From the NCBI GenBank assembly GCA_041659225.1, contig JBAZYR010000004.1:9867-73866 (forward strand): a DNA stretch of 64,000 bases, read 5' to 3'. This DNA is from Candidatus Staskawiczbacteria bacterium (GTDB taxonomy: Bacteria > Patescibacteriota > Minisyncoccia > Minisyncoccales > Staskawiczbacteraceae). Positions 14,080 through 57,981 of the stretch are shown here, in pieces (positions within the stretch are counted from its first letter, which is position 1; every line of letters begins with the position of its first letter). The position numbers and the translations under genes were made by a program. The notes under the pieces were generated by a model, which was not told the DNA's origin, did not search any database, and saw nothing but the letters and a program-made list of their open reading frames with translations.

Positions 14080-17000
14080 TTATGATACGTTAATAATTTC
14101 TTCGATATCGTCAGCTATAATCTTTATTTCCCCATCCCTGTCGTCAACTTTACCCTTTACGAAAACTATCTTATTCTCCATCAAAGCATCTTGGTTTTTG
14201 TCCATTACTTTTGGGAAAACTACCACCTCTACCTTGTTAGTCAAATCCTCAAGGTTTAAGAACATCATGGGCTTTCCCGTACGAGTGATGATCTTTTTAA
14301 CGGTTGAGATTATTCCTCCGATCTTTACCAGTTTTCCAACCACATCAATATTAAGGCCGCTAAGGGGATAAGTTCTTTTTTCCAGAATGTTTTTAAAGCC
14401 GTCTAATGGATGGGCCGAGACATACAGCCCCAAAAGTTCCTTTTCCCAGTTCAATTGGTCGGTTAAAGAGATTGCTTGAGCGGTTTTCAGCTCCAAGTGC
14501 AGGGGATTATATGTAGGGTGATTGGCAAACAGAGTTTTTTGGTTATTGTTGGCATTTTTCTTTATTTCCCTGTTCGCCTCAATAATGTCCTCTATATTAT
14601 ATAGTAGCTTATTCCTTTCCTCTAATCTATCAAAAACGCCGGCTTTTATCAAACTCTCCAAGGATTTTTTATTCAAGGTTTTTGAATTGATGCGGCAGAT
14701 AAAGTCGTGTATAGATTTGAAGGGTCCGGCCTCTTTCCTTTCTACAATAATTGCTTCAACTATATTTTCTCCAACATTCTTAATAGCCAGCAATCCAAAG
14801 CGGATTTTATTCTCATTAGGCACTACGGAGAAGTTTCTAAAGCTCTCGTTCACATCAGGGGCTAGTACTGTGAGTCCCATTTTTTTGCATTCTTTTATCA
14901 AAACTGCAATCCTCTCAATATCTGCTTTTTCCGATGTCAGCAATGAAGCCATAAATTCAGAAGGATAGTGGGATTTTAAATAGGCAGTCTGGCAGGCGAT
15001 TGTAGCATAAGCCACAGAATGGGATTTGTTGAAACCATATTCAGCGAAAGGAAGTATCCACTGCCATATCTTATCAGCGTCTTCTTTTTTCATTCCGTTT
15101 TTAGTGCAGCCGGTAATAAATTTCTCTTCTTGGTCGCGGAGCAAGTCTTTTATCTTTTTTCCGACTGCTTTTCTCAACACATCAGCTTCAGACAACGAGA
15201 ATCCGGCGAGATGCTGGGCAATTTGCATTAATTGCTCCTGGTACACGCAAATGCCATATGTAGATTCTAATATCGGCTGGAGCTTAGGGTGTAAGTATTC
15301 AATTTTTTTCTTTTTGTGTTTGCCTTTGATAAAGTCAGGAATGAATTGCATTGGTCCTGGCCTATAGAGCGCAACCATAGCGACAATATCTTCAAAAGTC
15401 GTGGGCCTTAAGTCCTTTAAATATCTTTTAAGTCCATCGCTTTCGAGTTGGAATACGCCTGTTGTATTCGCTTCTTGGAGAAGCTTGTAGGTCTCTGCGT
15501 CGTCAAAAGGAATGTCGTCTATCTGTATGGATTTTTTATGGATTTCATAAATCCTGGCAAGGCAGTCTTCTATTATAGTAAGGTTTTTTAGGCCAAGGAG
15601 GTCCATTTTCAACAGTCCTAAATCTTCAATGGCGTGCATCTCATATTGGGTTACGATGCTATCGTCATTCTGCGTTGGTCTTTGAAGCGGAACATAGTCA
15701 GTCAACGTTGTATCAGATATCACGACTCCGCAGGCATGAGTTGAGGCATGGCGGGCGACACCCTCAAGTTTTCCGCCGAGGTCAATTAATCTTTTTGCCT
15801 GTTCGTCGCTTTCGTAAAGTTCTTTGAATTCCTGGACTCCTTCAAGGGTCTCCTTCAGAGTCATTCCGAAGGGAATCATTTTTGCTATCCTGTCGCAATA
15901 GTTGTAGGGAATTGATAAAGCTCTGCCAACGTCGCGGATAACCGCTCGGGCAGCCATTGTTCCAAAAGTAATAATCTGGGCTACGTGGTCCTTGCCATAT
16001 CTCTCCCCGACATAGTTAATAACCTCATCTCTCCGTCTGTCGGTAAAATCAAGATCAATATCTGGCATAGATATTCTCTCAGGATTCAAAAACCTTTCGA
16101 ACAGAAGATCGTTCTTGATCGGGTCAACATTCGTAATGTTCGTTAAATACGCAACTATTGACCCGCCGGCGCTTCCACGGCCAGGCCCCACAACTATCCG
16201 ATTTGATTTAGCCCAGTTAACAAAATCTTGGACAATTAAAAAATAGCCGGAAAATCCAGTCTTTTTTATTACAGAAAGTTCATATTGCAATCGTTCTAAT
16301 ATTTTTTTATCCGGGTTTTCGCCATATCTTTTCGGCAACCCTTTTTTGCAAAGTTCTTCAAGGAATTGTTCAGCTGTTTTTTCGTCGGGAACCGGGAAAA
16401 GAGGAAGTTTTGTTTTGCCCAATTCAAAATCAAAGTTGCACAGGTCCGCGATCTTTTGGGTGTTTTCTATGGCTTCAGGGACGTGGCTGAAGAGCTCAGC
16501 CATTTTTTCCGGAGACCTCATGGAGAAGTCTTCGTTTTTCATGGTCAACCTTTCCGGGTCGTTTATATCCGCGCCGGTATTAATTAACATCAAGATATCC
16601 TGGACCTCGTTATCCTCGGGCCTCAAATAATGTATGTCGTTTGTTGCTACCAAAGGAATATCCAGTTCTTTTGCGATATCAATTATAACCTTATTCACCC
16701 TTTCCTGTTCTGGAATATTCGCATGATGCTGAAGCTCGAGATAAAAGTTGCCTTTTCCAAAGATTTCTTTGTACCTCCCGGCTTGATCCTTAGCTTCTTG
16801 CATCTTGTTGGCTAAAATCAAGCGCGGTATTTTTCCTTGCAGGCAGGCTGAAAGACAGATAAGCCCTTCTGAATGTTTGGTCAGCAATGCTTCGTCAATC
16901 CTGGGTTTGTAATAGAATCCTTCTAAGTGGGCTTTAGTAACAAGCTTTACCAAATTCTTGTATCCTGCCGCGTTTTTGACTAATAGTATCAAGTGGTATC

Positions 17001-17256
17001 TTTTGTCGTCGATGTTAAGTCTGCGTTGGTCCATTCCTTCAAAGGCCTGATACATTTCGCATCCGATTATTGGTTTTATTCCTTTCTTTTTGCACGTTTT
17101 GTAGAATTCAACTGCGCCGTACAAAACCCCGTGGTCGGTTAAAGCCACAGAATCCATTCCGGATTGTTTTACGTAGTCTACCAGTTCATTGATCTTCGGC
17201 AGGCCGTCTAATAAACTGTAGTGGGAGTGGACGTGTAGGTGGGCGAATTTTGACAT
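14080..17256 (-). CDS. dnaE: DNA polymerase III alpha subunit
   Basis: PHP domain HLHVHSHYSLLDG, PDIDLDF catalytic motif. 1058 aa. Confidence 0.96.
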   Translation of the reverse strand: MSKFAHLHVHSHYSLLDGLPKINELVDYVKQSGMDSVALTDHGVLYGAVEFYKTCKKKGIKPIIGCEMYQAFEGMDQRRLNIDDKRYHLILLVKNAAGYKNLVKLVTKAHLEGFYYKPRIDEALLTKHSEGLICLSACLQGKIPRLILANKMQEAKDQAGRYKEIFGKGNFYLELQHHANIPEQERVNKVIIDIAKELDIPLVATNDIHYLRPEDNEVQDILMLINTGADINDPERLTMKNEDFSMRSPEKMAELFSHVPEAIENTQKIADLCNFDFELGKTKLPLFPVPDEKTAEQFLEELCKKGLPKRYGENPDKKILERLQYELSVIKKTGFSGYFLIVQDFVNWAKSNRIVVGPGRGSAGGSIVAYLTNITNVDPIKNDLLFERFLNPERISMPDIDLDFTDRRRDEVINYVGERYGKDHVAQIITFGTMAARAVIRDVGRALSIPYNYCDRIAKMIPFGMTLKETLEGVQEFKELYESDEQAKRLIDLGGKLEGVARHASTHACGVVISDTTLTDYVPLQRPTQNDDSIVTQYEMHAIEDLGLLKMDLLGLKNLTIIEDCLARIYEIHKKSIQIDDIPFDDAETYKLLQEANTTGVFQLESDGLKRYLKDLRPTTFEDIVAMVALYRPGPMQFIPDFIKGKHKKKKIEYLHPKLQPILESTYGICVYQEQLMQIAQHLAGFSLSEADVLRKAVGKKIKDLLRDQEEKFITGCTKNGMKKEDADKIWQWILPFAEYGFNKSHSVAYATIACQTAYLKSHYPSEFMASLLTSEKADIERIAVLIKECKKMGLTVLAPDVNESFRNFSVVPNENKIRFGLLAIKNVGENIVEAIIVERKEAGPFKSIHDFICRINSKTLNKKSLESLIKAGVFDRLEERNKLLYNIEDIIEANREIKKNANNNQKTLFANHPTYNPLHLELKTAQAISLTDQLNWEKELLGLYVSAHPLDGFKNILEKRTYPLSGLNIDVVGKLVKIGGIISTVKKIITRTGKPMMFLNLEDLTNKVEVVVFPKVMDKNQDALMENKIVFVKGKVDDRDGEIKIIADDIEEIINVS

Positions 17257-17293
17257 ATGAATATTATCCCATTTTACGTGTTAAGATAGCATA

Positions 17294-17923
17294 ATGCAAT
17301 ATCCAAATTTTAATGAAGAACGAAAACTGCAGGGCAGGGGATTCGGAAACGTCGCCGGTTTGGACGAGGCCGGCCGAGGGCCGTTAGCCGGCCCCGTTGT
17401 GGCCGCTGCAGTTATTGTTAGGAGCAAAAGATCGGAGATATTCAAAATAGGGGTCCGAGATTCGAAAAAACTTTCTGCTCGCCAGAGAGATAAGCTATTT
17501 AGTATTTTGACAAGCCATAGCCAAGTTAGTTGGGGAGTGGGCATAGTTTCAGAAAAAGTAATAGATAAGATAAACATTTTGCAGGCAACGAAGCTAGCAA
17601 TGCAAAAAGCGGTTGATGTATTAAAAAAGAAAATATCTAAAGTAGACTTTTTAATACTCGACGGAAATTTTAGCATCGTTTCTCCAATCCCGCAAAGATC
17701 AATTATTAAAGCTGATATAAAGGTTTTTTCCTGCGCAGCCGCGAGCGTGATAGCCAAAGTTACCCGAGATAGGATCATGATCAAATACGACAAAAAATAT
17801 CCGGGATACGGATTTGCAAAGCATAAAGGGTATCCAACGTTAAAACACAGGGAGGCTATAAAAAGAATTGGGCCTTGTCATATCCACAGGAAATCATTTT
17901 TTGGTGTAAAAGAAAAGCCCTGA
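17294..17923 (+). CDS. rnhB: Ribonuclease HII
   Basis: GLDEAGRGPLAGPVVAAAV active-site motif. 209 aa. Confidence 0.9.
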   Translation: MQYPNFNEERKLQGRGFGNVAGLDEAGRGPLAGPVVAAAVIVRSKRSEIFKIGVRDSKKLSARQRDKLFSILTSHSQVSWGVGIVSEKVIDKINILQATKLAMQKAVDVLKKKISKVDFLILDGNFSIVSPIPQRSIIKADIKVFSCAAASVIAKVTRDRIMIKYDKKYPGYGFAKHKGYPTLKHREAIKRIGPCHIHRKSFFGVKEKP

Positions 17924-17976: not shown

Positions 17977-19347
17977 TTATCGGCTAACGACTGCGTCAGC
18001 CGGTTTGTTTGTGCTCGCAGCAACCTTTGGGGTCGCTGTGATATTAGGAGGTGCCTTGAGGCAATATGAGAAATTCATTGGAGCCTGACAGAGCTCGTTC
18101 ACCTTTCCGTCGTTCCAGACAAGAAGTGTTCTATTCCGGAAGAGGAAGGTCTTTTCAGCAATCCAGCGGAACTGGTCGCCTATAACTCCGGTCGCTATCG
18201 TTTTCTGTTGGACCTGAATCATGTTATTCAAGGGAATGTAGGGCCAATGTCGCGGCCCAACGTTGTCGCAGTTTGGCTTGTATTCACGTCCAATGTCGCT
18301 CGCCTCTATCCCTCGAAGGATTTCTTGGCTGCTGAATGAAACAACCATTCCTCCGGTGAGACAGGCAAGGGAACCGTCTTTTCCCCAATCCAGGCCATCG
18401 CATGTTTTGAGCAAAATAGGGATTTCCCAGATTCCTGGTTTGGTTCCTGGAACAAATCGGGTCGCAGGGATAGGTGCTCCGCGTTTGAATGACGCAATCG
18501 GCAAAGAAGTTGGGTCGCGGATTTCAATCGGACCCCAACCTATTTCGCTTTGATAGATGAACGCAATCAGCGGTCTGCCGGAAAGGTTTTTTGACCAGGT
18601 AGGAAAGCGGGCATTTCTCTTGATAGAGAACATTCGATGTACATCGCGTTCAGCCGCATATATTCCGCTTATCTTTAGCGACTGAGTTGTCCGGTGTTTC
18701 AGAAGGATCAGCTCCGCCGTGGGCTGCATTTGGAGATCCTGCCAGGTAGCTCGGATGGGGAAGGTTGGCGGGATATATGCTGTGTTCCCGTACACTTCCG
18801 GCACCCCTTTGTTACCTGGGCTTGGCATCACCACAATGGCATTGCAGAAGTCCGGCGCTACGGCGTAAAAAGGATATGCAGCGAAGTTCGTCGGCGTGCC
18901 GTTTACGTTCTGGTCCAATCCCGCGCCTTCTTCCATTAAAACCCATTTGATGTCGTATCGGGTCGTTTCGAAGGAAATCCATCGTCCATCAGAGGACACG
19001 TTCAGATTTCTCGTGTCTGCCGGTGGAGAAGAAGCGGCTGAGCCCTTCTTCGCGGTTGGTTTTCCTCGCTCATACGTCGTGTAGCTGGCCTCTCCGTCGG
19101 GGAGGACTTTCTTCCAAAGTTTGGATCTGTCGGACCAGAATAATGTTGAGCCGTCAACTGAGACCGCCACGGCTTCTTTGATTTGCGTGGCTTTGGTTCC
19201 AGTAGCCAGGCTCGCTTTATTCCCAGTGAAATCCTGGAAAAAAGCATTCTTCCCGTCCGAGTAGATAATTCCGCCCGTGAGGTCCTGGGCCTTTGCGGAC
19301 ATGGCGATTGACAGGAACGTCATCGCGATCACTAGGATTGATCTCAT
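17977..19347 (-). CDS. Hypothetical secreted protein, 456 aa (GC-richer islet)
   Basis: Signal peptide MRSILVIAMTFLSIAMSAKA. GGAGGTGA 3 nt before the ATG. A sample line counts 31/60 GC. Confidence 0.6.
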   Translation of the reverse strand: MRSILVIAMTFLSIAMSAKAQDLTGGIIYSDGKNAFFQDFTGNKASLATGTKATQIKEAVAVSVDGSTLFWSDRSKLWKKVLPDGEASYTTYERGKPTAKKGSAASSPPADTRNLNVSSDGRWISFETTRYDIKWVLMEEGAGLDQNVNGTPTNFAAYPFYAVAPDFCNAIVVMPSPGNKGVPEVYGNTAYIPPTFPIRATWQDLQMQPTAELILLKHRTTQSLKISGIYAAERDVHRMFSIKRNARFPTWSKNLSGRPLIAFIYQSEIGWGPIEIRDPTSLPIASFKRGAPIPATRFVPGTKPGIWEIPILLKTCDGLDWGKDGSLACLTGGMVVSFSSQEILRGIEASDIGREYKPNCDNVGPRHWPYIPLNNMIQVQQKTIATGVIGDQFRWIAEKTFLFRNRTLLVWNDGKVNELCQAPMNFSYCLKAPPNITATPKVAASTNKPADAVVSR

Positions 19348-19422
19348 CGGTCACCTCCATATATTTTGTCAAGGAGACTCTTGCGTTTTGACCCTCCACA
19401 TTAGAGGGGTGTGCTACCTATT

Positions 19423-19431
19423 ATTATACCA
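19423..19431 (-). promoter_or_regulatory. Extended -10 promoter element (TGGTATAAT) for the 456-aa secreted protein gene
   Basis: Reverse complement of attatacca. About 75 nt upstream of the ATG at 19347. Confidence 0.4.
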
Positions 19432-19458
19432 AAAAAGAAATAAAAGTAAAGGTCAATA

Positions 19459-19612
19459 AGTTATCCACACCCTGTATATTTTCCATCAATATTTTAATTG
19501 TGCTACAATAATTTAATAAAAAGTAACGTGTACGTATTTAAAAAGAAGAAATATAGTTATCCACAGCCCACATATATTTTAATTGTGCTACAATAATTGA
19601 ATAAAAAGTAAC
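19459..19612 (+). repeat. Imperfect tandem duplication (~96-nt offset) of a unit made of TTATCCACA plus an extended -10 promoter TGCTACAAT
   Basis: TTATCCACA at 19461-19469 and 19557-19565. ATTTTAATTGTGCTACAATAATT(T/G)AATAAAAAGTAAC at 19491-19527 and 19576-19612. Confidence 0.8.
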
Positions 19613-19623
19613 TAAATATATAT

Positions 19624-27424: not shown

Positions 27425-28150
27425 ATGGTTCTGACCGATTTTAGAAAAGAAGATCTTCTGAGTATTGATCCAAATGATTTCACGGAGGTAGCGTTATCTC
27501 CGGATGAGATTTGGCATATTTTCACTACCCTAGGCGCTGTCTGGGTTTACGAGGGGGAACCAGATGCCAAAAAGCCGCATGCGGCTTTTACTTCGGGCAA
27601 ATGTTGCAACGGATATATCAGCTGTCGAAAAGTCCTTTGCTATCCGAATCTCTGCGAACTTCTAGCCGTTCAACATGTTAAAGCCTTGCGGCGTTTGGGT
27701 TGGATCGAAAAAGTCGATTGGGTTATAGGTTCCGTTGACAGCGTTGTCACTTGGTCCTATGAGGTCGCTCGAACGCTTCATGCAAGACATGGGTTCTGCG
27801 AAAAAGACCCAGCCGACCCAGAACAAAGGCGGATGATTTGGAAAGAAGAAATTCCGATAGGAGCCGAGGTTTTGTACACCGAAGATCTAGTTATCGCGAA
27901 AGAGACCTCTGAGGTTGCAAAGTCGGCAGTAAGGAAAAGTAATCCGCATCGTCCGATTAATTTCTATCCGTTTATCAGCGCTTTGGTTCATAGACCGGCT
28001 AGTACCGGCCCCTTAGCTACTAACGGGGTTGTCCCTCTCATTTTCCGGGTTTTCCAGACCTGGGAACGGCTTGATTGTCCCTACTGCCATGTTTGCTCCG
28101 CCCGGTTGCATCCCGAGAGAGATTGGGCCAGGCTTCTTGGCCGGGTGTGA
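27425..28150 (+). CDS. Hypothetical protein, possibly phosphoribosyltransferase-like with a degenerate PRPP loop (GC-richer islet)
   Basis: AGGAGG 7 nt before the ATG. Layout resembles PyrE-like PRTases (HAAFTSGK.., VDWVIGS.., AEVLYTEDLVIAKETS) but the PRPP loop is not canonical. A sample line counts 33/60 GC. Confidence 0.45.
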   Translation: MVLTDFRKEDLLSIDPNDFTEVALSPDEIWHIFTTLGAVWVYEGEPDAKKPHAAFTSGKCCNGYISCRKVLCYPNLCELLAVQHVKALRRLGWIEKVDWVIGSVDSVVTWSYEVARTLHARHGFCEKDPADPEQRRMIWKEEIPIGAEVLYTEDLVIAKETSEVAKSAVRKSNPHRPINFYPFISALVHRPASTGPLATNGVVPLIFRVFQTWERLDCPYCHVCSARLHPERDWARLLGRV

Positions 28151-28160
28151 AGTGTATATA

Positions 28161-28199
28161 AAAAAAGTAGCCGGCTACACAGGTGTAGTTCGGCTTTTT
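28161..28199. terminator. Bidirectional hairpin terminator between convergent genes
   Basis: A-run, AGCCGGCTACAC / GTGTAGTTCGGCT stem, T-run. Confidence 0.6.
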
Positions 28200-28810
28200 C
28201 ATTTCACGGTTCTTGCTCGTTGGTAGTAACCAATGAGGCTTTTTATTGCATAATAAATTACCACGATTAAAAGGGTGTCGATGAGATAGACTGCAGAACT
28301 GAATAAATCGCAGTTAAGACATTTCTCCAGCGCGAGAACAATAAGCCATATGGCTACCAGAAAAAACTGGATAAACATTTTAATTCTGCCGTTTTGTCCG
28401 GCCTTTACGCTGCGTCCTGTGAGAAGGTCATAGAGCCAGCGACCCATTAAGCCGCATTCCAGCAGGATAACGAATCCTGTGAGGATGATGGTGGGCGGAG
28501 TTAAGTAAAAAAACCTATGTTCGGTTCTGTTCAAATACCATACCAATAGCAGCAGGACAGTGCAGATGAAGATTTTATCTCTGAACCTATCGATTGCTTC
28601 TCCGAAGGCGCTTTGAATTTTGAAATATCGTGCCACCTTGCCATCAAGGAAATCAGAAAGGCCGATTAAGATAACTAGGGTTACAATTTCCCATATCCTG
28701 TATGGGTTTGTTGCGGCCAAGAAAATCAGCCCGAAGGTGAGAAACAAGCCAGAAACCGTGATTATGTTCGCTAAGTTTTTAAAGAGCCAGGATTCCCGAG
28801 TCTGAATCAT
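28199..28810 (-). CDS. CDP-alcohol phosphatidyltransferase family protein
   Basis: DFLDGKVARYFKIQSAFGEAIDRFRDK matches DGx2ARx8Gx3Dx3D. GGGAGGA 7 nt before the ATG. Confidence 0.85.
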   Translation of the reverse strand: MIQTRESWLFKNLANIITVSGLFLTFGLIFLAATNPYRIWEIVTLVILIGLSDFLDGKVARYFKIQSAFGEAIDRFRDKIFICTVLLLLVWYLNRTEHRFFYLTPPTIILTGFVILLECGLMGRWLYDLLTGRSVKAGQNGRIKMFIQFFLVAIWLIVLALEKCLNCDLFSSAVYLIDTLLIVVIYYAIKSLIGYYQRARTVK

Positions 28811-30367: not shown

Positions 30368-31243
30368 ATGGATGATATTAAAAAAGCTATTATTCCTGTT
30401 GCCGGGCTGGGAACAAGATTCTTACCGCTGACAAAAGCTGTTCCCAAAGAGTTTTTTCCCTTAGTTGATAAACCAATAATTCAATACCTAATTGAAGAAG
30501 CCAAGCAATCAGGAATATCTGAAGTTATTTTTGTAATAAACTCCACCCAGAAAGCAATTATCAACTACTTCAAAAAAGATGAAGCTTTGGAGAAGCTGCT
30601 TATCAAGAGAAAAAAAGATCAACTTTTAAAAGAGTTGAAGGAGTTTGAGCAAACCCTTGACGGGATGTCCTTTGAGATGGTGATTCAAAGAAAGCCGCTT
30701 GGAGACGGTAACGCTATTTTGCAGGCAGCTAAATTCATCGGGAACGAGCCAGTAGCCGTTTTATTCGCTGATGATGTTGTTTATGGGGAGGAGCCAGCGA
30801 TATCCCAACTCATGGACATTTACAAAACCTGTGATTGTCCGATTATAGGGCTTAAAAAAATGCCGAGAGAAAAGCTGCCGGCATATGGAGTTCCTGCTGT
30901 TGAAAAAATAGCGAGTAGGTTGTATAAAATTAAGGAATTAATTGAGAAACCAGAAATATCCAAACTTCCTTCGGACATGGCTGTTGTCGGGAAATATATT
31001 TTGACTCCGGACGTGTTCAAGTATTTAAAAAAGGCTGTTCCTTCGAAAAAGGGCGAAGTAATTCTGGCTGAAGTTTTAAGCAAAATGCTGTTAGACGGAA
31101 AAATGGTGTATGGTTATGAATTGAAGGGAGAGTGGCTTGAGTGCGGCGACAAAGAAAAATGGCTAAAGTCTTTCATATATCTTTGTTTAAAAAACCCGCG
31201 GTTTGGGCCGGAGTTGAGGGAGTATATAAAACAGATAAAATAA
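30368..31243 (+). CDS. galU: UTP-glucose-1-phosphate uridylyltransferase
   Basis: AIIPVAGLGTRFLPLTKAVPKE. 291 aa. Confidence 0.88.
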   Translation: MDDIKKAIIPVAGLGTRFLPLTKAVPKEFFPLVDKPIIQYLIEEAKQSGISEVIFVINSTQKAIINYFKKDEALEKLLIKRKKDQLLKELKEFEQTLDGMSFEMVIQRKPLGDGNAILQAAKFIGNEPVAVLFADDVVYGEEPAISQLMDIYKTCDCPIIGLKKMPREKLPAYGVPAVEKIASRLYKIKELIEKPEISKLPSDMAVVGKYILTPDVFKYLKKAVPSKKGEVILAEVLSKMLLDGKMVYGYELKGEWLECGDKEKWLKSFIYLCLKNPRFGPELREYIKQIK

Positions 31244-31260
31244 TCTAGATAATATTAACA

Positions 31261-31286
31261 GGATGCCTAGCATTCTGTTTTTGTTT
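31261..31286 (+). terminator. Terminator after galU
   Basis: GGATGC-cta-GCATTC then TGTTTTTGTTT. Confidence 0.5.
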
Positions 31287-31331
31287 AAAAAAAAGGCCCC
31301 GAGGGGTTTTACGAATGTGCCCCCGGGGACC
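31287..31331 (-). terminator. Rho-independent terminator of the minus-strand GC-rich unit
   Basis: On the minus strand, GGTCCCCGGGG ... CCCCTCGGGGCC interrupted stem followed by TTTTTTTT. Confidence 0.6.
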
Positions 31332-31361
31332 TTGGCTTAGCTTTGCAGAGATCTGCGATAC

Positions 31362-31421
31362 TTACGACGTATTGGATGACGTCGTGACTTCCTGGTTTCG
31401 ACCGAAATGACGCACAGTCAT
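31362..31421 (-). CDS. Candidate micro-ORF, 19 aa (MTVRHFGRNQEVTTSSNTS)
   Basis: AAGGAG 8 nt upstream of the ATG. Below the ORF-track cutoff. Confidence 0.25.
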   Translation of the reverse strand: MTVRHFGRNQEVTTSSNTS

Positions 31422-31551
31422 GGGGAGTGCTCCTTGTGTTAGTGGAGAGGTTGTCCTGAACGTCACGTTCGAGCCGGATGCCTCAAGTGTGAGGCGCCTG
31501 TTTAAACAATCAAGTTGTTCATCACCTCCTAAGCGGAGACCGCGCCGATGT

Positions 31552-31647
31552 TCAGCAGTTCGCCAGGTTCGCGGCGGAATGGACGCTCAGGTTCGCCGGC
31601 AGCAGCTTCTTCGGATCTCGGGCCAGGTTACCTTTACGCTTGCGCAT
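31552..31647 (-). CDS. Candidate micro-ORF, 31 aa (MRKRKGNLARDPKKLLPANLSVHSAANLANC)
   Basis: GAGGAG 9 nt upstream of the ATG. Below the ORF-track cutoff. Confidence 0.3.
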   Translation of the reverse strand: MRKRKGNLARDPKKLLPANLSVHSAANLANC

Positions 31648-31892
31648 GTTTTGTCACTCCTCATTGTGACCGGTCTTTGTTTTCCACTCGTTCACGATTG
31701 GTTTGTTGATGCAGAAGTAGATAACCCCCTTTCTTTTTTCGCTTCTGCGTCAGGTAGGGATTAAGTGCGCGACGCGGTTGCGCACGGTTTGTCTAGCTGC
31801 ATAGTTAAGCCATTGTTGTATTTTCAAGGTGCTAGAGTTGGACAAAGATTGTCTCCGAATTCGAATAAGAAACTATCTTTATCCACACCTTT

Positions 31893-31922
31893 ATTATATC
31901 CCCCTAACCTGAAAAGTGTCAA
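31893..31922 (-). promoter_or_regulatory. Near-consensus sigma70 promoter facing the GC-rich unit
   Basis: Minus strand reads TTGACA, 18-nt spacer, TATAAT. The predicted start falls inside TGTGGATAA (31879-31887). Confidence 0.55.
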
Positions 31923-31976
31923 TAATTTTAACTTGTAGCTTGTGATTTAAAAGAGGTATAATAAAGAAAAAATATT

Positions 31977-32456
31977 ATGGATGAAAAAAACAGCAGCCTG
32001 GTCAATATAGTACGACTTTTAGGAAGCATTGTTTTCTGCCAGGCTATTGGTTTTGCCGGTGCGATTTTTACAATGCCGGCAATTAACAGCTGGTACTCGA
32101 CAATAAACAAACCGTCCTTCAATCCTCCTAACTGGATTTTTGCGCCCGTATGGACCATATTATTCCTGCTAATGGGAATTTCTCTTTATATTATTTGGAA
32201 GAAAGGATTGGATACAAAGGCTGTAATAGTTTTTAATAGTCAGTTGGCTCTAAACCTTCTTTGGTCAATATTATTTTTTGGTCTGAAGCTCCCGGGTTTG
32301 GCTTTTATTGATTTAATACTTTTATTAGCGGCTATATTCTATACCATCGTCATTTTCTATAAAATTTCGAAGACCGCCGGTCTGATTTTACTGCCATATA
32401 TTGTTTGGGTCTGTTTCGCGGGCGTTTTAAATCTCGCAATTTTTATACTTAATTAA
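31977..32456 (+). CDS. tspO: TspO/MBR family tryptophan-rich sensory protein
   Basis: NSWYSTINKPSFNPPNWIFAPVWTILF and five TM helices. Confidence 0.88.
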   Translation: MDEKNSSLVNIVRLLGSIVFCQAIGFAGAIFTMPAINSWYSTINKPSFNPPNWIFAPVWTILFLLMGISLYIIWKKGLDTKAVIVFNSQLALNLLWSILFFGLKLPGLAFIDLILLLAAIFYTIVIFYKISKTAGLILLPYIVWVCFAGVLNLAIFILN

Positions 32457-32457
32457 A

Positions 32458-32595
32458 ATGAAGAAATATTTTCAAAGGCTGTCGCAAAAACTGCGGAACA
32501 ATCCAAAAGAGCCAAGATCCAAAACGATTAATAGGTTCTGGGGTTTGGCGACGCGTCTTGAGAAAAGAAATGTAAGCGGGAAGAGATCAAAATAA
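32458..32595 (+). CDS. Candidate small basic protein, 45 aa
   Basis: ATG lies 1 nt after the tspO stop and the stop lies 2 nt before the next ATG. Sequence MKKYFQRLSQKLRNNPKEPRSKTINRFWGLATRLEKRNVSGKRSK. Confidence 0.35.
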   Translation: MKKYFQRLSQKLRNNPKEPRSKTINRFWGLATRLEKRNVSGKRSK

Positions 32596-33734: not shown

Positions 33735-35270
33735 ATGTTAATGATCGAAGAAACACATAATTGGCCGTTAGCCAGATTTATTGTTCCCGCTTTTCCTAAG
33801 GTCAACATCTTCAGCCGTTATGCGGGGAGGATGACATCTCTGGGCATTATTATGGTCGCAACTGCCGCCAACAAGCTCTGGGGTTGGCGGGTAGAAGTTA
33901 TTGATGAAAATAATTACAAGGGTCCGCGCGATGAAGCCGGCTTGCCAGATCACGCAAAACTGCAGCAAGAAAGGCCCGCCTTAGTTGTCGGCTTTTATTG
34001 CGGGCTTACTTCCACAATGGAGCGCGCATTCGATTTGGCTGATTTTTATCACCGTGCAGGGGCGATAGTTCTCGCCGGTGGTTGGCACGTCCATTATTGT
34101 CCGGAAGAGGCGTTGGATAATAACATCGACGTGGTGGTTCACGGCGATGGGGAAATTGTTATTAAACAGCTTCTCGCGGCAATACGCGACGGAGCACCAA
34201 TTGATGGAATTCCGGGTATTTCATTTTCGCTTGACGGACGAAAGTTCACCAACCCTCCTGCAATGCTAGAAGTGGCGTGCCTGGATGAGTTACCTTATCC
34301 CGACTTCGGCCTGTTGCGTCACGTGAGAAAAATCAGGAATTATCCGATTGGCCGAATCCGCGGTTGCGGAAAGAACTGTGAGTTTTGCAGCGTTAAAGGA
34401 AAAGCTCGCTGGGCTAGCGCTGAATATCTTTTCGGGACAGTTAATTGGCTGGTGGAAACGCGAGGTGCCCGCAACTTCTTTATTGTTGACGATCGGCTCG
34501 AAGAGGATCTCGAAGGAACTATGGAGTTTTTCAGACTCATTAGGGAGAAATACGGGAATAAACTTCATTTCACCGTTCAAATACGGTTAGAGGCTGCAAA
34601 GAACATAGAGTTTCTCGAAAACATGAAAGCCGCCGGCGTAGACGTGTCCTGTGTTGGCTATGAATCACCCGTTGATGAAGACTTGCGAAGTATGCATAAA
34701 GGTTATTTGGCTGCCAACATGCTGGAGTGGACTAGAATCCTGCGCCGCTATTTCTGGGTTCATGGAATGTTCATCTTCGGCTATCCTTCGAAAGATAAAA
34801 TCTCGAAGTTCGGTGCTCTGGAGCTAAAAAAGCGCTTCCAGTCCTTTATCAGGAAAGCTCACCTCGATAGCATCCAGGTATTGCATCCGGTTCCCTTAGT
34901 CGGAACGGCTTTAAGAAAGCGGCTTCAAGACGAGAATCGAATTATTCCGCAGGAATTAGTATCTTTGAGAAGATACGACGGAAGCTTCGTTTGCTTTCGT
35001 CCCATTGGCATGACCATAGAGGATTTGCAGGTAATACCCTTCGAGATAATGCGCTGGTTCTACAGCCCGTTTAGTTTTTTACGAATTCCGCTGCGGACGA
35101 TCATTTTTCCGTTCGATTTTCTCATTCGTGGCTGGTGGAGATGGCATCGCGACTGGCTGCGCGATATTGTAAAGTATGGAGGTCACCTTCTTGTCCAAAG
35201 ATGGAGCAAGCAAGAAGGAAATCAGGGATTTCTACGGGAGTTGAAAAGATTTGGTTATCATATTCATTGA
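33735..35270 (+). CDS. B12-binding-domain radical SAM protein (class B), function unknown (GC-richer islet)
   Basis: N-terminal cobalamin-binding-like Rossmann segment (VVGFYCGLTS...VVVHGDGE), CGKNCEFC = CxxxCxxC. AAGGAGG 7 nt before the ATG. No SPASM-type C-terminal cysteines. Confidence 0.85.
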   Translation: MLMIEETHNWPLARFIVPAFPKVNIFSRYAGRMTSLGIIMVATAANKLWGWRVEVIDENNYKGPRDEAGLPDHAKLQQERPALVVGFYCGLTSTMERAFDLADFYHRAGAIVLAGGWHVHYCPEEALDNNIDVVVHGDGEIVIKQLLAAIRDGAPIDGIPGISFSLDGRKFTNPPAMLEVACLDELPYPDFGLLRHVRKIRNYPIGRIRGCGKNCEFCSVKGKARWASAEYLFGTVNWLVETRGARNFFIVDDRLEEDLEGTMEFFRLIREKYGNKLHFTVQIRLEAAKNIEFLENMKAAGVDVSCVGYESPVDEDLRSMHKGYLAANMLEWTRILRRYFWVHGMFIFGYPSKDKISKFGALELKKRFQSFIRKAHLDSIQVLHPVPLVGTALRKRLQDENRIIPQELVSLRRYDGSFVCFRPIGMTIEDLQVIPFEIMRWFYSPFSFLRIPLRTIIFPFDFLIRGWWRWHRDWLRDIVKYGGHLLVQRWSKQEGNQGFLRELKRFGYHIH

Positions 35271-41951: not shown

Positions 41952-42635
41952 ATGGAAAAAATGACTAGGGATCAGTTGGTTAATATTCTATGTATCTTAC
42001 AGCGTATGCTCTTGTGTGAAGAAGTTGGGTTTGACTACGTACCCGCTGCTGTCGCTCGTGCGATTATAAATGGAGACCACGAAAAGTTCGCTGTTAACTT
42101 CGTTGAGCTTTTAGCAGGTGGTGGAAAATTCATCCCCACCGACCTAGAAGTTCGGACGGCACCATTCGATCCCGCTGAGTTCATCGGCCCTGGCTGGACA
42201 TTGTGGAAGGGTCGTAACGGCTTAGAGGGTGAGGAAGAATGCGATGCCCAGTCACCAAACTTAGTTGCGGTTAATCTCGAAAGGTGCGATTTCCTTTCGT
42301 GTTTGGATAAGGAAGAAAGCCCGATTACTGGAGAAGTCAGACTCTCTCGCTTCCGGGCTACCGGAAGAATACTATACGGCGTTACGGTAGCCATGGGAAT
42401 ATGGCAGGATTATCAATCCTCCGAGGATAAGGAAGAAAGCATCCTCGAGAAACTATATCAGAAATATGGTATTACTCATATCGACTTCCTAGGCACGGTT
42501 CTTCGGTCCCCGGGTGGCTATCGGTACGTATTTTGTTTCTGCCGTGGTGCTGATGATCAGTGGCGTTGGGGTTGTAACGGACTCATGTGCGATTGTGCTA
42601 AACAACACCTCGCCGCGGTTTCTCAGAAAATATAG
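41952..42635 (+). CDS. Hypothetical protein, 227 aa (GC-richer islet)
   Basis: GGAAGGAGA upstream of the ATG. No family recognised. Internal 16-nt exact repeat GGATAAGGAAGAAAGC at 42305 and 42425. Confidence 0.5.
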   Translation: MEKMTRDQLVNILCILQRMLLCEEVGFDYVPAAVARAIINGDHEKFAVNFVELLAGGGKFIPTDLEVRTAPFDPAEFIGPGWTLWKGRNGLEGEEECDAQSPNLVAVNLERCDFLSCLDKEESPITGEVRLSRFRATGRILYGVTVAMGIWQDYQSSEDKEESILEKLYQKYGITHIDFLGTVLRSPGGYRYVFCFCRGADDQWRWGCNGLMCDCAKQHLAAVSQKI

Positions 42636-55550: not shown

Positions 55551-56445
55551 CTACTAATACTCAGCGTATTAGATATTTTTTTTGAGAGTTTGATCCTAGC
55601 TCAGGGTGAACGCTGGTAACGTGGATAAGGCATGCAAGTCGAACGGGCTGTAGCAATACAGTCAGTGGCGAACGGGTTAGTAACACGTAGGTACCAACCT
55701 CCGAGATGAGAATAACCCATCGAAAGATGGGCTAATACTCAATAGTCCCACTCCGCAAGGAAATGGGTAAAGGTTCGCAAGAGCCGCTCAGAGATGGGCC
55801 TGCGGCCTATCAGCTTGTTGGCAGGGTAAAAGCCTACCAAGGCTATGACGGGTAGGGGGCGTGAGAGCGTGTCCCCCAACAATGGCACTGCGACACGGGC
55901 CATACTCCTACGGGAGGCTGCAGTCGAGAATCTTCCACAATGGGCGAAAGCCTGATGGAGCGACGTTACGTGAATGAAGAAGCCCTTCGGGGTGTAAAAT
56001 TCTTTTTTAGGGGAGGAAGTTGCCTTCGGGTAACTGACAGTACCTTAAGAATAAGGGGATCCTAATTCTGTGCCAGCAGGAGCGGTAATACAGAATCCCC
56101 GAGCGTTACCCGGAATTACTGGGCGTAAAGGGTCCGTAGGTGGTTAAGATAGTCTTTGGTTAAAACTCATCGGCTCAACCTTTGAGCTGCCGAAGATACT
56201 TCTTAACTCGAGGACGTTAGAGGCTAACGGAACCGACGGTGTAGGGGTGAAATCCGTTGATATCGTCGGGAACACCAAAAGCGAAGGCAGTTAGCTGGGA
56301 CGATCCTGACACTGAGGGACGAAAGCGTGGGGATCAAAAAGGATTAGATACCCTTGTAGTCCACGCTGTAAACGATGACCACTAGCTATTGGCAGTGTCG
56401 ACCCTGTCGGTGGCGAAGCTAACGCGTTAAGTGATCCGCCTGGGA

Positions 56446-56477
<32 letters not shown>

Positions 56478-56611
56478 AGACGGGGACTCACACAAGCGGT
56501 GGACCATGTGGCTCAATTCGACAACAAACGAAGAACCTTACCAGGGCTTGAAATTCCGTTGAAATCCCGATGAAAGTTGGGACCCCCACAAGGCAGCGGA
56601 ACAGGTACTGC

Positions 56612-57328
56612 ATGGTTGATGCTTTACTTTCTTATTCACAATCTGAAAGAAAGCACACGACCCCTTCTCGAGTAATCGAGATTGCAAAACCAGCTCATAA
56701 CGGTGAAACCTTCAAGTTTTATGTTAAAATTAATATACAAACTAATGGTAATACCGTGGGAAGTATAAGTACTAATTTTTGTAATTTTTTCTCTAAAATA
56801 GAAGATTCGTATATCTTAGGTCTTTGGTGCGCGGATAGCTATTGGTGGTCTAGTTCAGTCGGATTAAGCAATACCGATGACAAATTAATTGGTGAATTCA
56901 GAAAATTTTTGAAGAAAATTTTCCCTGAAGAAAGAATCAAATTTAATCGAAACCATATTTTCGTCAATAGTCGTCCGCTACTCAGAGAATTTATATCGGC
57001 AAAGGCGAGTTTAGACAGGTTGGAAGACCCTGATATAATTAAAGCATATTTCGCCGGACGGTTTGACGGTGATGGCTCGATTGATAAAAACCTAAGAAAT
57101 GATTGCAGGATAGTTTATGGGAGAAAGGAGGAAGCTGAAATGGATAAGAAACTTCTTGGGAAGATTAGAATTAGTAACACTAAAATTTATTACTATAAAG
57201 GAGCAAGAACATTTTGCCTTTATATTTCTAGATACCAGGCAAAGGAATTCCTTGGAAATATTTATCCTTATTCAATAAAATTACAGAAATTAGTACTTGT
57301 ACCCCGTAGAGACTTAGTTTTCCACTAA
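56612..57328 (+). CDS. LAGLIDADG-family homing endonuclease (two-motif, monomeric type)
   Basis: ILGLWCADSYWW and KAYFAGRFDGDGSI motifs. The only upstream in-frame ATG outside pure rRNA sequence is the ATG of the exon GCATGG at the junction. Confidence 0.8.
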   Translation: MVDALLSYSQSERKHTTPSRVIEIAKPAHNGETFKFYVKINIQTNGNTVGSISTNFCNFFSKIEDSYILGLWCADSYWWSSSVGLSNTDDKLIGEFRKFLKKIFPEERIKFNRNHIFVNSRPLLREFISAKASLDRLEDPDIIKAYFAGRFDGDGSIDKNLRNDCRIVYGRKEEAEMDKKLLGKIRISNTKIYYYKGARTFCLYISRYQAKEFLGNIYPYSIKLQKLVLVPRRDLVFH

Positions 57329-57442
57329 CAAAGGACGGAGAACTTAATAGCTTACCATGCTATTACACGCTGGTCCCCTAATCCCGCTTTGCGGGACGGG
57401 TGATGGTATAGTCCATACTTTTGGAAACAAGAGAACAATATG
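56618..57442 (+). mobile_element. Intervening sequence / intron-like insertion in 16S carrying a homing endonuclease gene
   Basis: Conserved GCATGGYTGTCGTCAGC is split as GCATGGTT | insert | GTCGTCAGC. The boundary is ambiguous by a few nt because ATGGT is repeated at both junctions. Confidence 0.8.
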
Positions 57443-57981
57443 GTCGTCAGCTCGTGTCTTGAGACGTACCGTTAATTCGGGTAACGAGCGCAACCCTTGT
57501 CTTATGTTTTATATGTCATAAGAGACTGCCCGGGATAACTGGGAGGAAGGTGAGGATGACGCCAAATCAGCATGGTCCTTTGATGCCCTGGGCCGCACAC
57601 GTGGTACAATGGCCGGTACAATGGGTTTGCCAACCCGAAAGGGGGAGCTAATCCCACCAAAACCGGTCTCAGTTCGGATTGAGGGCTGAAACCCGCCCTC
57701 ATGAAGCCGGAATCGCTAGTAATCGCCGATCAGCTACGCGGCGATGAATATGTTCCTGAGTCTTGTACTCACCGCCCGTCACGCCAAGCGAGCTGGGAAC
57801 AGCCGAAATTCCTCGCAAGGGGACTTAAGCTGGGCTCAGTAAGAGGGGCGAAGTCGTAACAAGGCACGGGTAGCGGAAGCTGCTCGTGGATCAATTTTTT
57901 TTATTTTTTTGTCGACTTAGGTTGAAATCGAAAATTTGGATTTCAACTTAAAAGCGTTTGGGGTGAATCGCTTGAAATTCA

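What the first reader, a model, noticed from the sequence alone, without database searches (positions are those of the whole stretch)
31287..31922. GC-rich promoter-to-terminator unit with no long ORF but two SD-led micro-ORFs
On the minus strand a near-consensus promoter (TTGACA, 18 nt, TATAAT, at 31893-31922) points into ~600 nt of GC-rich sequence. The unit ends at a strong hairpin plus U8 terminator (31287-31331).

The only credible coding elements are two micro-ORFs with good ribosome-binding sites. The first is 31 aa, MRKRKGNLARDPKKLLPANLSVHSAANLANC (31552-31647), with GAGGAG at 9 nt. The second is 19 aa, MTVRHFGRNQEVTTSSNTS (31362-31421), with AAGGAG at 8 nt.

The transcript is also full of short perfect hairpins: GTGCGCAAC/GTCGCGCAC, GCAGAAG..CTTCTGC, GCCTCA-cact-TGAGGC, GAACG-tga-CGTTC and ACGACGT..ACGTCGT.

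It could be a structured ncRNA, a small-peptide operon or a decayed foreign gene. The peptides have a basic leader-like N-terminus and a Ser/Thr/Cys-rich end, which loosely recalls RiPP precursors. The predicted transcription start lies inside a TGTGGATAA (DnaA-box-like) 9-mer.
Basis: partly seen in the sequence, partly recalled or inferred. Interest (0 to 1): 0.6.

Follow-up and report, generated by a model that had tools for sequence, protein, structure and literature searches.

The report
New structured RNA gene in CPR bacteria
The GC-rich unit is a real, separately transcribed gene for a folded RNA of about 600 bases, found so far only in a small group of ultra-small (CPR) bacteria. Its tiny reading frames are most likely by-products rather than genes.

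Summary
A perfect sigma-70-type promoter (31893-31922, minus strand) and a hairpin plus U8 terminator (31287-31331) bracket about 600 nt with no long ORF.

The window is a Staskawiczbacteria-like Parcubacteria (CPR) contig. I found five diverged homologues of the unit at the syntenic place after galU. All lie on the same strand, and each has its own promoter and terminator. They measure 329-469 nt.

Shared features:
- A 5' hairpin (P1).
- A conserved unpaired stretch.
- A covarying long-range helix (P2; window 31797-31812 with 31333-31348) that closes a variable core.
- The terminator.

No Rfam family, tRNA or tmRNA matches.

The 31-aa ORF sits in a 143-nt, 60% GC insertion found only in the window. 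Its only match in 1.84 billion proteins is itself. The 19-aa ORF has loose counterparts in 3 of 5 homologues.

This organism's 16S rRNA lacks the anti-Shine-Dalgarno sequence, and 45 of 51 genes lack an SD, so "good RBS" carries little weight here.

Best reading: a new, lineage-restricted structured non-coding (at most dual-function) regulatory RNA. How it acts is unknown. No expression data were available.

The parts
31917..31922 (-). -35 hexamer TTGACA
   Evidence: Part of a 12/12 consensus match with an 18-nt spacer. Homologues have TTGATT, TTGACA or TTGACC at the same place.
31893..31898 (-). -10 hexamer TATAAT. The inferred start of the RNA is about 31886.
   Evidence: Homologues have TATAAT, TAGAAT or TACAAT, always 7-8 nt before the P1 hairpin. 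The start site is inferred, not mapped.
31879..31887 (-). TGTGGATAA 9-mer (DnaA-box consensus). In the window it overlaps the start site and the 5' arm of P1.
   Evidence: There are 3 copies in the window against 0.47 expected. The same 9-mer lies just upstream of the -35 in L015, L063, L073 and L005.
31839..31885 (-). P1, a hairpin at the 5' end (UGGAUAAAGAU...AUCUUUGUCCA)
   Evidence: Among the five sequences that aligned, 92.5% of cells are paired and 4 of 8 pairs changed on both sides. Only 1 of 500 shuffles reached this.
31814..31838 (-). J1/2, a conserved and mostly unpaired segment (ACUCUAGCACCUUGAAAAUACAACA). Homologues read UAACUCUUAGCUCUUUUAAAUCA.
   Evidence: Block conservation. Unpaired probability is 0.6-0.99 in the window and 0.8-0.9 in L015.
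31797..31812 (-). P2 long-range helix, 5' strand (UGGCUUAACUAUGCAG)
   Evidence: the repeat finder pair I1: 16 nt, 88% complementary, 448 nt apart. The MFE fold agrees. Duplex test p = 0.002.
31775..31793 (-). GACAAACCGUGCGCAACCG block, the counterpart of the conserved AAUAACACACGCC block of the homologues. It overlaps the window's GUGCGC/GCGCAC hairpin (31765-31785).
   Evidence: A 16/19 copy of this block lies at the start of the 31-aa ORF (repeat D1).
31752..31765 (-). CUUAAUC-C-CUACCU: 5' strands of helix P3 and of the tentative helix P4
   Evidence: Homologous to (GUG)AUCAAUUC-CCAACUC in L015, L063 and L073. P3 shows 84% paired cells and 5 of 11 pairs changed on both sides, in a hand-registered alignment. 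It is weak in the window itself (5 bp). P4 rests on inspection only.
31531..31673 (-). Window-specific insertion of 143 nt at 60% GC. It contains the 31-aa micro-ORF (31552-31647) and its GAGGAG.
   Evidence: Absent from all five homologues. The peptide's only hit in 1.84 billion proteins is itself. No Pfam match.
31521..31530 (-). AGGAGGUGAU, a 10-nt perfect Shine-Dalgarno-like block
   Evidence: The only copy in the window. Kept in L015 and L063, reads AGGAGGUGCA in L060, is degenerate in L073 and absent in L005.
31500..31513 (-). UUGAUUG (P3 3' strand, which reads as a 3-codon mini-ORF) plus the conserved UAAAC
   Evidence: Pairs with AUCAAUUC in L015, L063 and L073, with pair probability 0.6-0.97 in L015 and L063. 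Covariation.
31362..31421 (-). 19-aa micro-ORF MTVRHFGRNQEVTTSSNTS, preceded by AAGGAG
   Evidence: Counterparts are MIHRSFFDTS (L015), MKPLDTS (L063) and a 42-aa Thr-rich ORF ending DTSTT (L060). L073 and L005 have none.
31333..31348 (-). P2 long-range helix, 3' strand (CUGCAAAGCUAAGCCA)
   Evidence: The homologous helices covary: 90% of cells paired, 5 of 10 pairs changed on both sides, 0 of 500 shuffles reached the covariation score (hand-registered).
31287..31331 (-). Intrinsic terminator: two-part GC-rich stem plus U8
   Evidence: All five homologues end with GGCCCC..GGGGCU and a U run, with different inner stems.

Best explanation
The unit is a stand-alone gene for a structured RNA of about 600 nt (minus strand, about 31886 to 31287). 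It belongs to an undescribed RNA family seen so far only in a clade of Staskawiczbacteria-like Parcubacteria.

**Anatomy (shown by comparison)**
- A sigma-70-type promoter.
- A hairpin at the very 5' end (P1).
- About 25 nt of conserved, unpaired sequence (J1/2).
- A long, irregular long-range helix (P2) that pairs nt 75-90 with nt 539-554 and closes a variable, A/C-rich core.
- An intrinsic terminator.

The core tolerates lineage-specific expansions. In the window, a 143-nt GC-rich insertion both creates the 31-aa ORF and accounts for part of the GC excess (60% GC, against 48% in the rest of the transcript and 38-39% in the flanks).

**How it works (inferred)**
- The product acts as RNA, most likely as a non-essential trans-acting regulator.
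- Its conserved unpaired blocks (J1/2, the AAUAACACACGCC-type block and the A/C-rich linkers) would contact mRNAs or an RNA-binding protein.
- The Shine-Dalgarno-like runs would be helix strands or ligand sites rather than ribosome-binding sites, because this organism's 16S rRNA has no anti-SD.
- Transcription itself, the exact ends and the partner molecules are not shown.
For: **Homologues**
- Five diverged homologues lie at the syntenic locus after galU or its neighbour: L015, L063, L073, L060 and L005. Their GalU proteins are 66-78% identical to the window's.
- All are on the strand opposite to galU, and each has its own -35/-10 and terminator. Lengths are 329-469 nt.

**P2 long-range helix**
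- In every copy the 5' segment pairs with the stretch just before the terminator better than with shuffled versions: p = 0.002, 0.001, 0.004, 0.014, 0.064 and <0.001.
- The full-length MFE fold finds this helix in 5 of 6 copies.
- The repeat finder finds its two arms in the window independently.
- The core sequences differ between copies: UUCAAAUG/CAUUUGAA, UUCCAAAUG/CAUCUGGAA, UUUCCCGG/CUGGGAAA, UUUCUAGAU/AUCUAGAAA.
- 90% of cells are paired, 5 of 10 pairs changed on both sides, and 0 of 500 shuffles reached the covariation score.

**Other helices**
- P1: 92.5% of cells paired, 4 of 8 pairs changed on both sides.
- P3: 84% paired, 5 of 11 pairs changed on both sides.

**Fold stability**
- The five homologues have sense-strand z-scores of -3.1 to -8.8, each more negative than the antisense strand.
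- The window copy does not share this strand asymmetry: -4.1 against -4.0.

**Coding capacity is not conserved**
- The 31-aa ORF lies in a window-only insertion and is an orphan.
- The plus-strand 114-aa ORF has no homologue.

**Translation signals**
- The 16S rRNA lacks the anti-SD (PMC9297842).
- 45 of 51 genes lack an SD-like motif.
Against: - There are no expression data. Strand and ends rest on sequence signals only.
- Only six distinct sequences were found. The P2 and P3 alignments were registered by hand, which favours the proposed pairs.
- P2 in L060 is only marginal (p = 0.064).
- P3 is weak in the window itself.
- Four of six copies keep an ATG ORF behind an AAGGAG-like run. It ends in D/N-T-S with three different Ser codons (UCC, UCG, AGC), which could reflect selection on a peptide.
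- A 10-nt perfect SD-like run is kept in three copies, and its first 8 nt in a fourth, without a firmly established pairing partner.
- No target or partner was found. The search for mRNA pairing among neighbouring genes gave nothing consistent.
- The excess of ACAA/ACAC words largely follows from A/C-rich composition.
Confidence: 0.7

Rival explanations
1. Dual-function RNA or small-protein mRNA. The transcript is translated, and the short Thr/Ser-rich peptide (19 aa here) ending in D/N-T-S is a functional product. The conserved RNA structure serves stability or translational control.
For: - An ATG ORF preceded by an AAGGAG-like run at 6-10 nt is present in the window, L015, L063 and L060.
- All four end in NTS, DTS or DTSTT.
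- The Ser codon is UCG, UCC, UCC and AGC respectively.
- Six genes in the window do carry strong SD-like motifs, so some SD-dependent process cannot be excluded.
Against: - The ORF is absent from L073 and L005, which keep the RNA architecture.
- Lengths are 7, 10, 19 and 42 aa, with no similarity apart from the last three residues.
- L015 and L063 are identical at the nucleotide level there (GACACGUCC), so an RNA motif explains them equally well.
- In L063 the stop codon, and in the window the last codons, fall within the extended P2 pairing.
- The 16S rRNA has no anti-SD.
Confidence: 0.15
2. Remnant of horizontally acquired DNA. A decayed foreign gene or cassette keeps textbook expression signals but has no present function.
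For: - The window copy is GC-rich (0.51) in a genome of about 0.41 GC.
- The 143-nt insertion uses GC3-rich codons.
- The other SD-bearing genes in the window are also GC-richer, 0.48 against 0.41.
Against: - Six copies diverged with their hosts at one syntenic locus. They keep promoter, terminator and covarying helices, which neutral decay would not do.
- Three homologues are not GC-rich, at 0.40-0.41.
- There is no similarity to phage or plasmid DNA, and no protein homologue in any frame tested.
Confidence: 0.05
3. Leader-peptide attenuator or RiPP precursor locus. The Thr/Ser-rich ORF just before the terminator senses charged tRNA, or it is a precursor peptide modified by the nearby radical SAM enzyme.
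For: - The L060 ORF (MNVLRSNHAQKAVTTTTSITTATSTTTTASS...) resembles a thr-type leader and lies upstream of a terminator.
- A B12-binding radical SAM gene lies 1.8 kb away in the window.
Against: - Nothing lies downstream in the same orientation. The terminator faces the end of galU or of a carbohydrate kinase gene.
- The L063 peptide has a single Thr.
- L063 and L073 have the element but no radical SAM gene in the fetched loci, while L066 has the enzyme but not the element.
- There is no conserved core peptide.
Confidence: 0.03

Closest known systems
Long dual-function regulatory RNAs such as Staphylococcus aureus RNAIII (514 nt, encodes delta-haemolysin), from my own knowledge
   Same: - A 0.3-0.6 kb stand-alone unit with its own promoter and terminator.
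- Many hairpins, and long-range helices that close domains.
- A very small ORF embedded in some members.
- Conserved unpaired segments that could pair with mRNAs.
   Different: - No sequence or model similarity.
- The ORF is not kept in all members.
- No target pairing was found.
- The host lacks anti-SD-based initiation, so the classical mode of blocking an SD cannot simply be assumed.
Protein-sequestering RNAs: CsrB/RsmZ (CsrA sponges with GGA motifs) and CrcZ (Hfq/Crc sponge with A-rich motifs), from my own knowledge
   Same: - Short hairpins separated by A/C-rich single-stranded linkers.
- Two or three GGA-containing, SD-like runs (AGGAGGUGAU, AAGGAG).
- Strong promoter and dispensable gene.
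   Different: - The Rfam models for these families do not match.
- Motif counts are barely above what the composition predicts.
- Whether the lineage has CsrA or Hfq was not tested.
Large structured ncRNAs found as GC-rich islands in AT-rich genomes (OLE, GOLLD, ROOL, HEARO, raiA)
   Same: - An unusually long bacterial ncRNA with conserved helices.
- It was noticed because it is GC-richer than its surroundings.
   Different: - None of these Rfam families matches, even at E up to 10.
- Distribution is far narrower (one clade, six sequences).
- The conserved core is small and the centre is variable.
6S RNA and Ms1 (RNA polymerase-binding RNAs)
   Same: A long, irregular closing helix formed by distant 5' and 3' segments. 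Expected to be abundant and stable.
   Different: - No Rfam 6S or Ms1 hit.
- The enclosed region is 170-450 nt and multibranched, not a simple central bubble.
- An extra 5' hairpin and terminator lie outside the helix.

Membership tests
Any Rfam 15 family (4227 models, including 6S, tmRNA, RNase P, SRP, riboswitches, OLE, GOLLD, ROOL, HEARO, raiA, CsrB, CrcZ) | Covariance-model score at or above the family's gathering threshold | tested here: not met
   The only window hits at gathering score are the 16S rRNA and two tRNAs. In 31100-32100 the best match is 19 bits with E = 3.8, far below its cut-off. Homologue loci L015, L063 and L060 give nothing relevant at E up to 1.
tmRNA / tRNA | tRNA-like acceptor and T-arm fold, plus a tag reading frame for tmRNA | tested here: not met
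   ARAGORN finds only tRNA-Thr and tRNA-Ala, elsewhere in the window.
Leader-peptide transcription attenuator | Regulated genes downstream of the terminator on the same strand | tested here: not met
   The terminator is convergent with galU in the window, and with a carbohydrate kinase gene in L060.
Leader-peptide transcription attenuator | Leader ORF enriched in the sensed amino acid and conserved among relatives | tested here: not met
   The ORF is absent in L073 and L005. The L063 peptide MKPLDTS has one Thr.
RiPP precursor peptide | Conserved leader/core peptide that co-occurs with a maturase gene | tested here: not met
   The peptides are not alignable beyond three residues. Presence of the radical SAM gene does not track presence of the element. 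The 31-aa peptide is an orphan.
TIGR (tandem interspaced guide RNA) array of CPR bacteria and phages | Tandem array of short repeat units next to a tas (Nop-domain) gene | tested here: not met
   No tandem repeat at minimum score 30, and only scattered two-copy direct repeats. The neighbours are galU and tspO.
Protein-coding gene or pseudogene | An ORF, or a frame-shifted remnant of one, conserved among homologous loci or similar to known proteins | tested here: not met
   No shared ORF in six homologues. No Pfam match. No homologue of the 114-aa ORF. The 31-aa ORF hits only itself. tblastn against plasmids is empty.
Independent structured ncRNA gene (generic) | Own promoter and terminator conserved, and base pairs maintained by compensatory changes | tested here: met
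   Promoter and terminator are present in all six. Covariation supports P1, P2 and P3. An alignment-free test supports the long-range pairing.
Independent structured ncRNA gene (generic) | A transcript of the predicted strand and length is made | not testable with these tools
   No transcriptome data were available.

The most novel reading that the evidence does not exclude
The nearly invariant AAGGAGGUGAU is a perfect complement of the canonical 16S rRNA tail, kept in a lineage whose own ribosomes have lost that tail. In the most novel reading it is a functional decoy. The RNA would titrate a factor that recognises GGAGG-type sequences and that also controls the few SD-bearing genes of these genomes. 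Alternatively it would engage ribosomes of another organism, such as the host of these presumed symbionts. Either way it would be a new kind of regulator tied to the loss of SD-based initiation in Parcubacteria.
Probability: 0.06. Interest if true: 0.8.

Novelty: new member of a known kind. Interest (0 to 1): 0.5.

Why it matters
- Almost nothing is known about regulatory RNAs in CPR/Patescibacteria, which form a large share of bacterial diversity and cannot easily be grown.
- Bacterial ncRNAs longer than 300 nt with conserved long-range structure are rare. Each new class has pointed to unexpected biochemistry.
- This one is small enough to test: six sequences, a clear closing helix and a compact 329-nt version.
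- It sits in a lineage whose ribosomes have lost the anti-Shine-Dalgarno sequence, yet it keeps a perfect SD-like run. That makes it a handle on how such cells use, or re-use, these sequences.
- It is also a caution for annotation. In these genomes "SD plus ATG" is not evidence for a gene.

Tried and rejected
- **Rfam.** Gathering and permissive thresholds on the window and on homologue loci gave nothing.
- **ARAGORN.** No tRNA or tmRNA in the unit.
- **Single-sequence nhmmer.** The window element found only identical contigs. Homologues were recognised by synteny and by eye, then confirmed with a profile.
- **Metagenome scan.** The pattern AGGAGGTGAT..TTGATTGNNTAA gave one true homologue, L040, identical to L015. 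About 40 unrelated loci shared only the pattern, so the block was a poor probe.
- **Viral-contig scans.** Two conserved motifs gave nothing.
- **blastn and tblastn.** blastn against phages and plasmids and tblastn against plasmids gave nothing.
- **A conserved 3-codon mini-ORF after the strong SD (MIV, MIA, MKV).** Rejected. It is absent in L060 and L005 and differs in L073, and its sequence is the 3' strand of helix P3.
- **A fixed cis partner for the SD-like block.** Predicted partners differ between copies. The proposed pairing with CCCARCUC or with J1/2 AGCUCUUUU remains tentative.
- **Repeated ACAA/ACAC protein-binding motif.** Enrichment over the genome is 3-6 fold, but only about 1.5 fold over the RNA's own composition (my estimate from the counts).
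- **sRNA-target pairing with start regions of neighbouring genes.** No orthologous target recurs.
- **MAFFT plus RNAalifold on joined 5' and 3' segments.** It failed to register the covarying helix, so a hand-registered alignment was used.
- **TIGR array.** No tandem repeats.
- **A 456-aa gene next to two TGTGGATAA boxes as dnaA.** No Pfam match, so no such link.
Full report
**What is there.**
- On the minus strand, a perfect sigma-70-type promoter (TTGACA, 18 nt, TATAAT; 31922..31893; 12 of 12) is the best promoter-like site in the surrounding 2.7 kb.
- About 600 nt downstream lies a two-part GC-rich hairpin followed by U8 (31331..31287).
- The stretch is 0.51-0.53 GC against 0.38-0.39 in the flanks.
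- It lies between galU (30368-31243, +) and a TspO/MBR-family gene (31977-32456, +).
- It has no long ORF on the transcribed strand.
- The RNA folds better than shuffled sequence, z = -4.1.

**Where the window comes from.**
- The GalU protein is found identically on a 785-kb ENA contig and two Logan contigs. A source labels it Candidatus Staskawiczbacteria.
- The 16S rRNA gene carries an insertion of about 790 nt with a LAGLIDADG-type ORF, typical of CPR bacteria.

**Homologues.**
- A search with the element's DNA found only identical contigs.
- Following GalU relatives into genomes and assemblies gave five distinct diverged copies at the same place. All lie on the strand opposite to galU.
  - L015: galU, element, tspO.
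  - L063 and L073: the same order.
  - L060: galU, carbohydrate kinase, element, DUF167.
  - L005: GalU only 66% identical; recognised by eye and confirmed with a profile.
- Each copy has its own -35/-10 pair (TTGATT, TTGACA or TTGACC; TATAAT, TAGAAT or TACAAT; spacer 17-18) placed 7-8 nt before a hairpin. Each ends in GGCCCC...GGGGCU plus a U run.
- Inferred RNA lengths are 600 (window), 469, 452, 400, 388 and 329 nt.
- Close relatives L068 (89 nt between galU and tspO) and L066 lack the element, so it is dispensable.

**Shared architecture.**
- *P1.* A hairpin sits at the 5' end. Among the five sequences that aligned, 92.5% of cells pair and 4 of 8 pairs changed on both sides. Only 1 of 500 column shuffles reached this, and slid registers drop to 32-50% paired.
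- *J1/2.* About 25 nt of conserved, mostly unpaired sequence follows. It reads UAACUCUUAGCUCUUUUAAAUCA in most copies and ACUCUAGCACCUUGAAAAUACAACA in the window.
- *P2.* A long-range helix joins a segment starting at nt 63-78 to the stretch just upstream of the terminator.
  - In the window its arms are 31797-31812 and 31333-31348. The repeat finder reports them independently: 16 nt, 88% complementary, 448 nt apart.
  - In an alignment-free test, the best duplex between these two segments beat 1000 dinucleotide shuffles of the 3' segment with p = 0.002, 0.001, 0.004, 0.014, 0.064 and <0.001 for the six copies.
  - Unconstrained full-length folding predicts this helix in five of six copies.
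  - The core sequences differ: UUCAAAUG/CAUUUGAA, UUCCAAAUG/CAUCUGGAA, UUUCCCGG/CUGGGAAA, UUUCUAGAU/AUCUAGAAA.
  - Registered on the invariant C-G pair, 90% of cells pair, 5 of 10 pairs changed on both sides and 0 of 500 shuffles reached the covariation score. That alignment was set by hand, which favours the structure.
- *Core.* Inside P2 lies a conserved AAUAACACACGCC-type block, then a variable, A/C-rich, multi-hairpin core.
- *Fold stability.* The five homologues have sense-strand z-scores of -3.1 to -8.8, each more negative than the antisense strand. The window copy shows no such asymmetry: -4.1 against -4.0.

**The micro-ORFs.**
- *31-aa ORF.*
  - It lies wholly inside a 143-nt, 60% GC insertion (31531-31673) that none of the homologues has.
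  - Its only match among 1.84 billion representative proteins is itself, and Pfam finds nothing.
  - Its start region is a 16/19 copy of the GACAAACCGUGCGCAACCG block further upstream. This hints that part of the insertion arose by internal duplication.
- *19-aa ORF.* Counterparts are 10, 7 and 42 aa in L015, L063 and L060, and there is none in L073 and L005. They share only a D/N-T-S end. The Ser codons differ (UCG, UCC, UCC, AGC), a weak hint of selection on a peptide. L015 and L063 are identical in nucleotides there.
- *3-codon frame behind the strongest SD-like run* (UUG AUU GUU UAA). I first took it for a conserved mini-ORF. It is instead the 3' strand of helix P3, which pairs with AUCAAUUC. 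Pair probability is 0.6-0.97 in L015 and L063, 84% of cells pair and 5 of 11 pairs changed on both sides.
- *Opposite strand.* The 114-aa ORF has no relative.
- Coding capacity is therefore not what is conserved.

**Why "good RBS" carries little weight here.**
- The window's 16S rRNA ends ...GUCGUAACAAGGCACGGGUAGCGGAAGCUGCUCGUGGAUCAAUUUUUUUUU, with no CCUCC.
- Loss of the anti-SD motif is documented for a subgroup of Parcubacteria: detection rate 48%, overlapping the uL1-lacking group (Tsurumaki et al. 2022, PMC9297842).
- Consistently, most start codons in the window are preceded by A/T-rich sequence. Only 6 of 51 long ORFs have an SD-like 5-mer at -20..-4, against 2-4 in control windows and 2.2 expected. 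Those six genes are GC-richer, 0.48 against 0.41.
- The element nevertheless keeps AGGAGGUGAU (31521-31530), the only copy in 64 kb. It is kept in L015 and L063, reads AGGAGGUGCA in L060, is degenerate in L073 and absent in L005.
- Predicted cis partners differ between copies. One is a pyrimidine run next to P3 (CCCARCUC; L073 has a U-A where the others have C-G). Another, in L060, is J1/2 AGCUCUUUU. I regard these as tentative.
- Why a perfect SD-like run persists in a lineage without an anti-SD remains unexplained.

**What it is not.**
- No Rfam family matches at gathering or permissive thresholds, in the window or in three homologue loci. There is no tRNA or tmRNA.
- It is not a tandem array, so not a TIGR array.
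- There is no similarity to phage or plasmid DNA, and none of two conserved motifs occurs in viral contigs.
- It is not an attenuator, because nothing lies downstream on the same strand.
- It is not a RiPP locus, because the radical SAM gene and the element do not co-occur.

**Most likely function.**
- Shown: a conserved, independently signalled unit whose conserved features are RNA helices and unpaired blocks, not a reading frame.
- Inferred: it is transcribed from the minus strand and acts as a stable, non-essential regulatory RNA. It would work through its conserved unpaired segments, either by pairing with mRNAs or by binding a protein.
- In build it is closest to long multi-domain regulators such as RNAIII. 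In composition it recalls sponge RNAs such as CrcZ or CsrB. It is a member of none of them.
- A search for conserved pairing with start regions of neighbouring genes found nothing. The ACAA/ACAC excess mostly reflects composition.
- I put 0.7 on "structured non-coding regulatory RNA gene of a new family", 0.15 on a translated dual-function RNA, and little on the remaining readings.

**Promoter context.**
- TGTGGATAA (the DnaA-box consensus) lies at the start site in the window, but just upstream of the -35 in L015, L063, L073 and L005. It is absent in L060.
- The window holds two more copies, one of them 4 nt upstream of a TTGACC -35 in front of a 456-aa gene of unknown function.
- The 9-mer may therefore be an operator shared by a few promoters. 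This was not pursued.

**Verdict.** This is a real feature and a new RNA family of narrow known distribution. Interest is moderate. It would rise if the family proves widespread in Patescibacteria or linked to the loss of SD-based initiation.

Noticed in passing
window 57840-57925: The 16S rRNA gene ends ...GGATCAATTTTTTTTTATTTTTTTG and has no CCTCC anti-Shine-Dalgarno sequence. A U-rich tail takes its place, while most genes have A-rich leaders. Whether the U-rich tail pairs with those leaders is an open thought.
   Followed up: partly
window 55578-57901 (ORF 56570-57328): The 16S rRNA gene is 2324 nt against a 1533-position model. The insertion holds a 252-aa ORF with a LAGLIDADG-like domain (Pfam E = 1.7e-7), presumably an intron-encoded homing endonuclease as in other CPR bacteria.
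   Followed up: partly
window 19348-19623: An AT-rich intergenic region (GC about 0.30) has two perfect TGTGGATAA boxes (19461, 19557). Each is preceded by a repeat of about 23 nt (ATTATTGTAGCACAATTAAAATA). One box lies 4 nt upstream of a TTGACC -35 in front of a GC-rich, SD-bearing 456-aa gene with no Pfam match. The same box-to-promoter arrangement is seen at the homologues of the element.
   Followed up: partly
window about 16500-17300: Cumulative GC skew has its minimum here. Gene orientation switches between dnaE (14080-17256, -) and rnhB (17294-17923, +). This may mark the replication origin region or simply reflect gene orientation.
   Followed up: no
window, six genes: 17977-19347(-), 27425-28150, 28199-28810(-), 33735-35270, 41952-42635, 61676-62740: Only these 6 of 51 long ORFs carry strong SD-like motifs at the right distance. 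They are GC-richer than the rest (0.48 against 0.41). Several are conserved in relatives, so it is unclear why SD-like motifs persist without an anti-SD.
   Followed up: partly
L030 1105-1132, L035 2446-2474, L036, L044, L045 (unrelated metagenome contigs): A separate conserved leader, AAGTCAAARGYTT..AGGAGGTGATGTCC(C)TTGATTGTCTAAAG, combines a strong SD with a 3-codon frame (Met-Ile-Val-stop). It lies 100-230 nt upstream of genes that start with lipoprotein-like signal peptides. It could be a regulatory upstream mini-ORF in another phylum.
   Followed up: no
L004/L067, L014, L015, L070, L071 (contig ends): Several assemblies of close relatives break inside or right after the 3' end of galU, at the edge of the element. 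This suggests strain-level variation in this region within populations.
   Followed up: no
window 31977-32456 / L001 7561-7791: In the source contig the gene caller recorded a 76-aa antisense ORF instead of the 159-aa TspO/MBR gene (Pfam E = 1.8e-48). The exact TspO protein is not on record in the collection.
   Followed up: no
window 32458-32595; L060 5835-5972; L066 5308-5442: A 44-45-aa ORF with no Pfam match (checked for the window copy, which is very basic) recurs near the element or its empty site in relatives.
   Followed up: no
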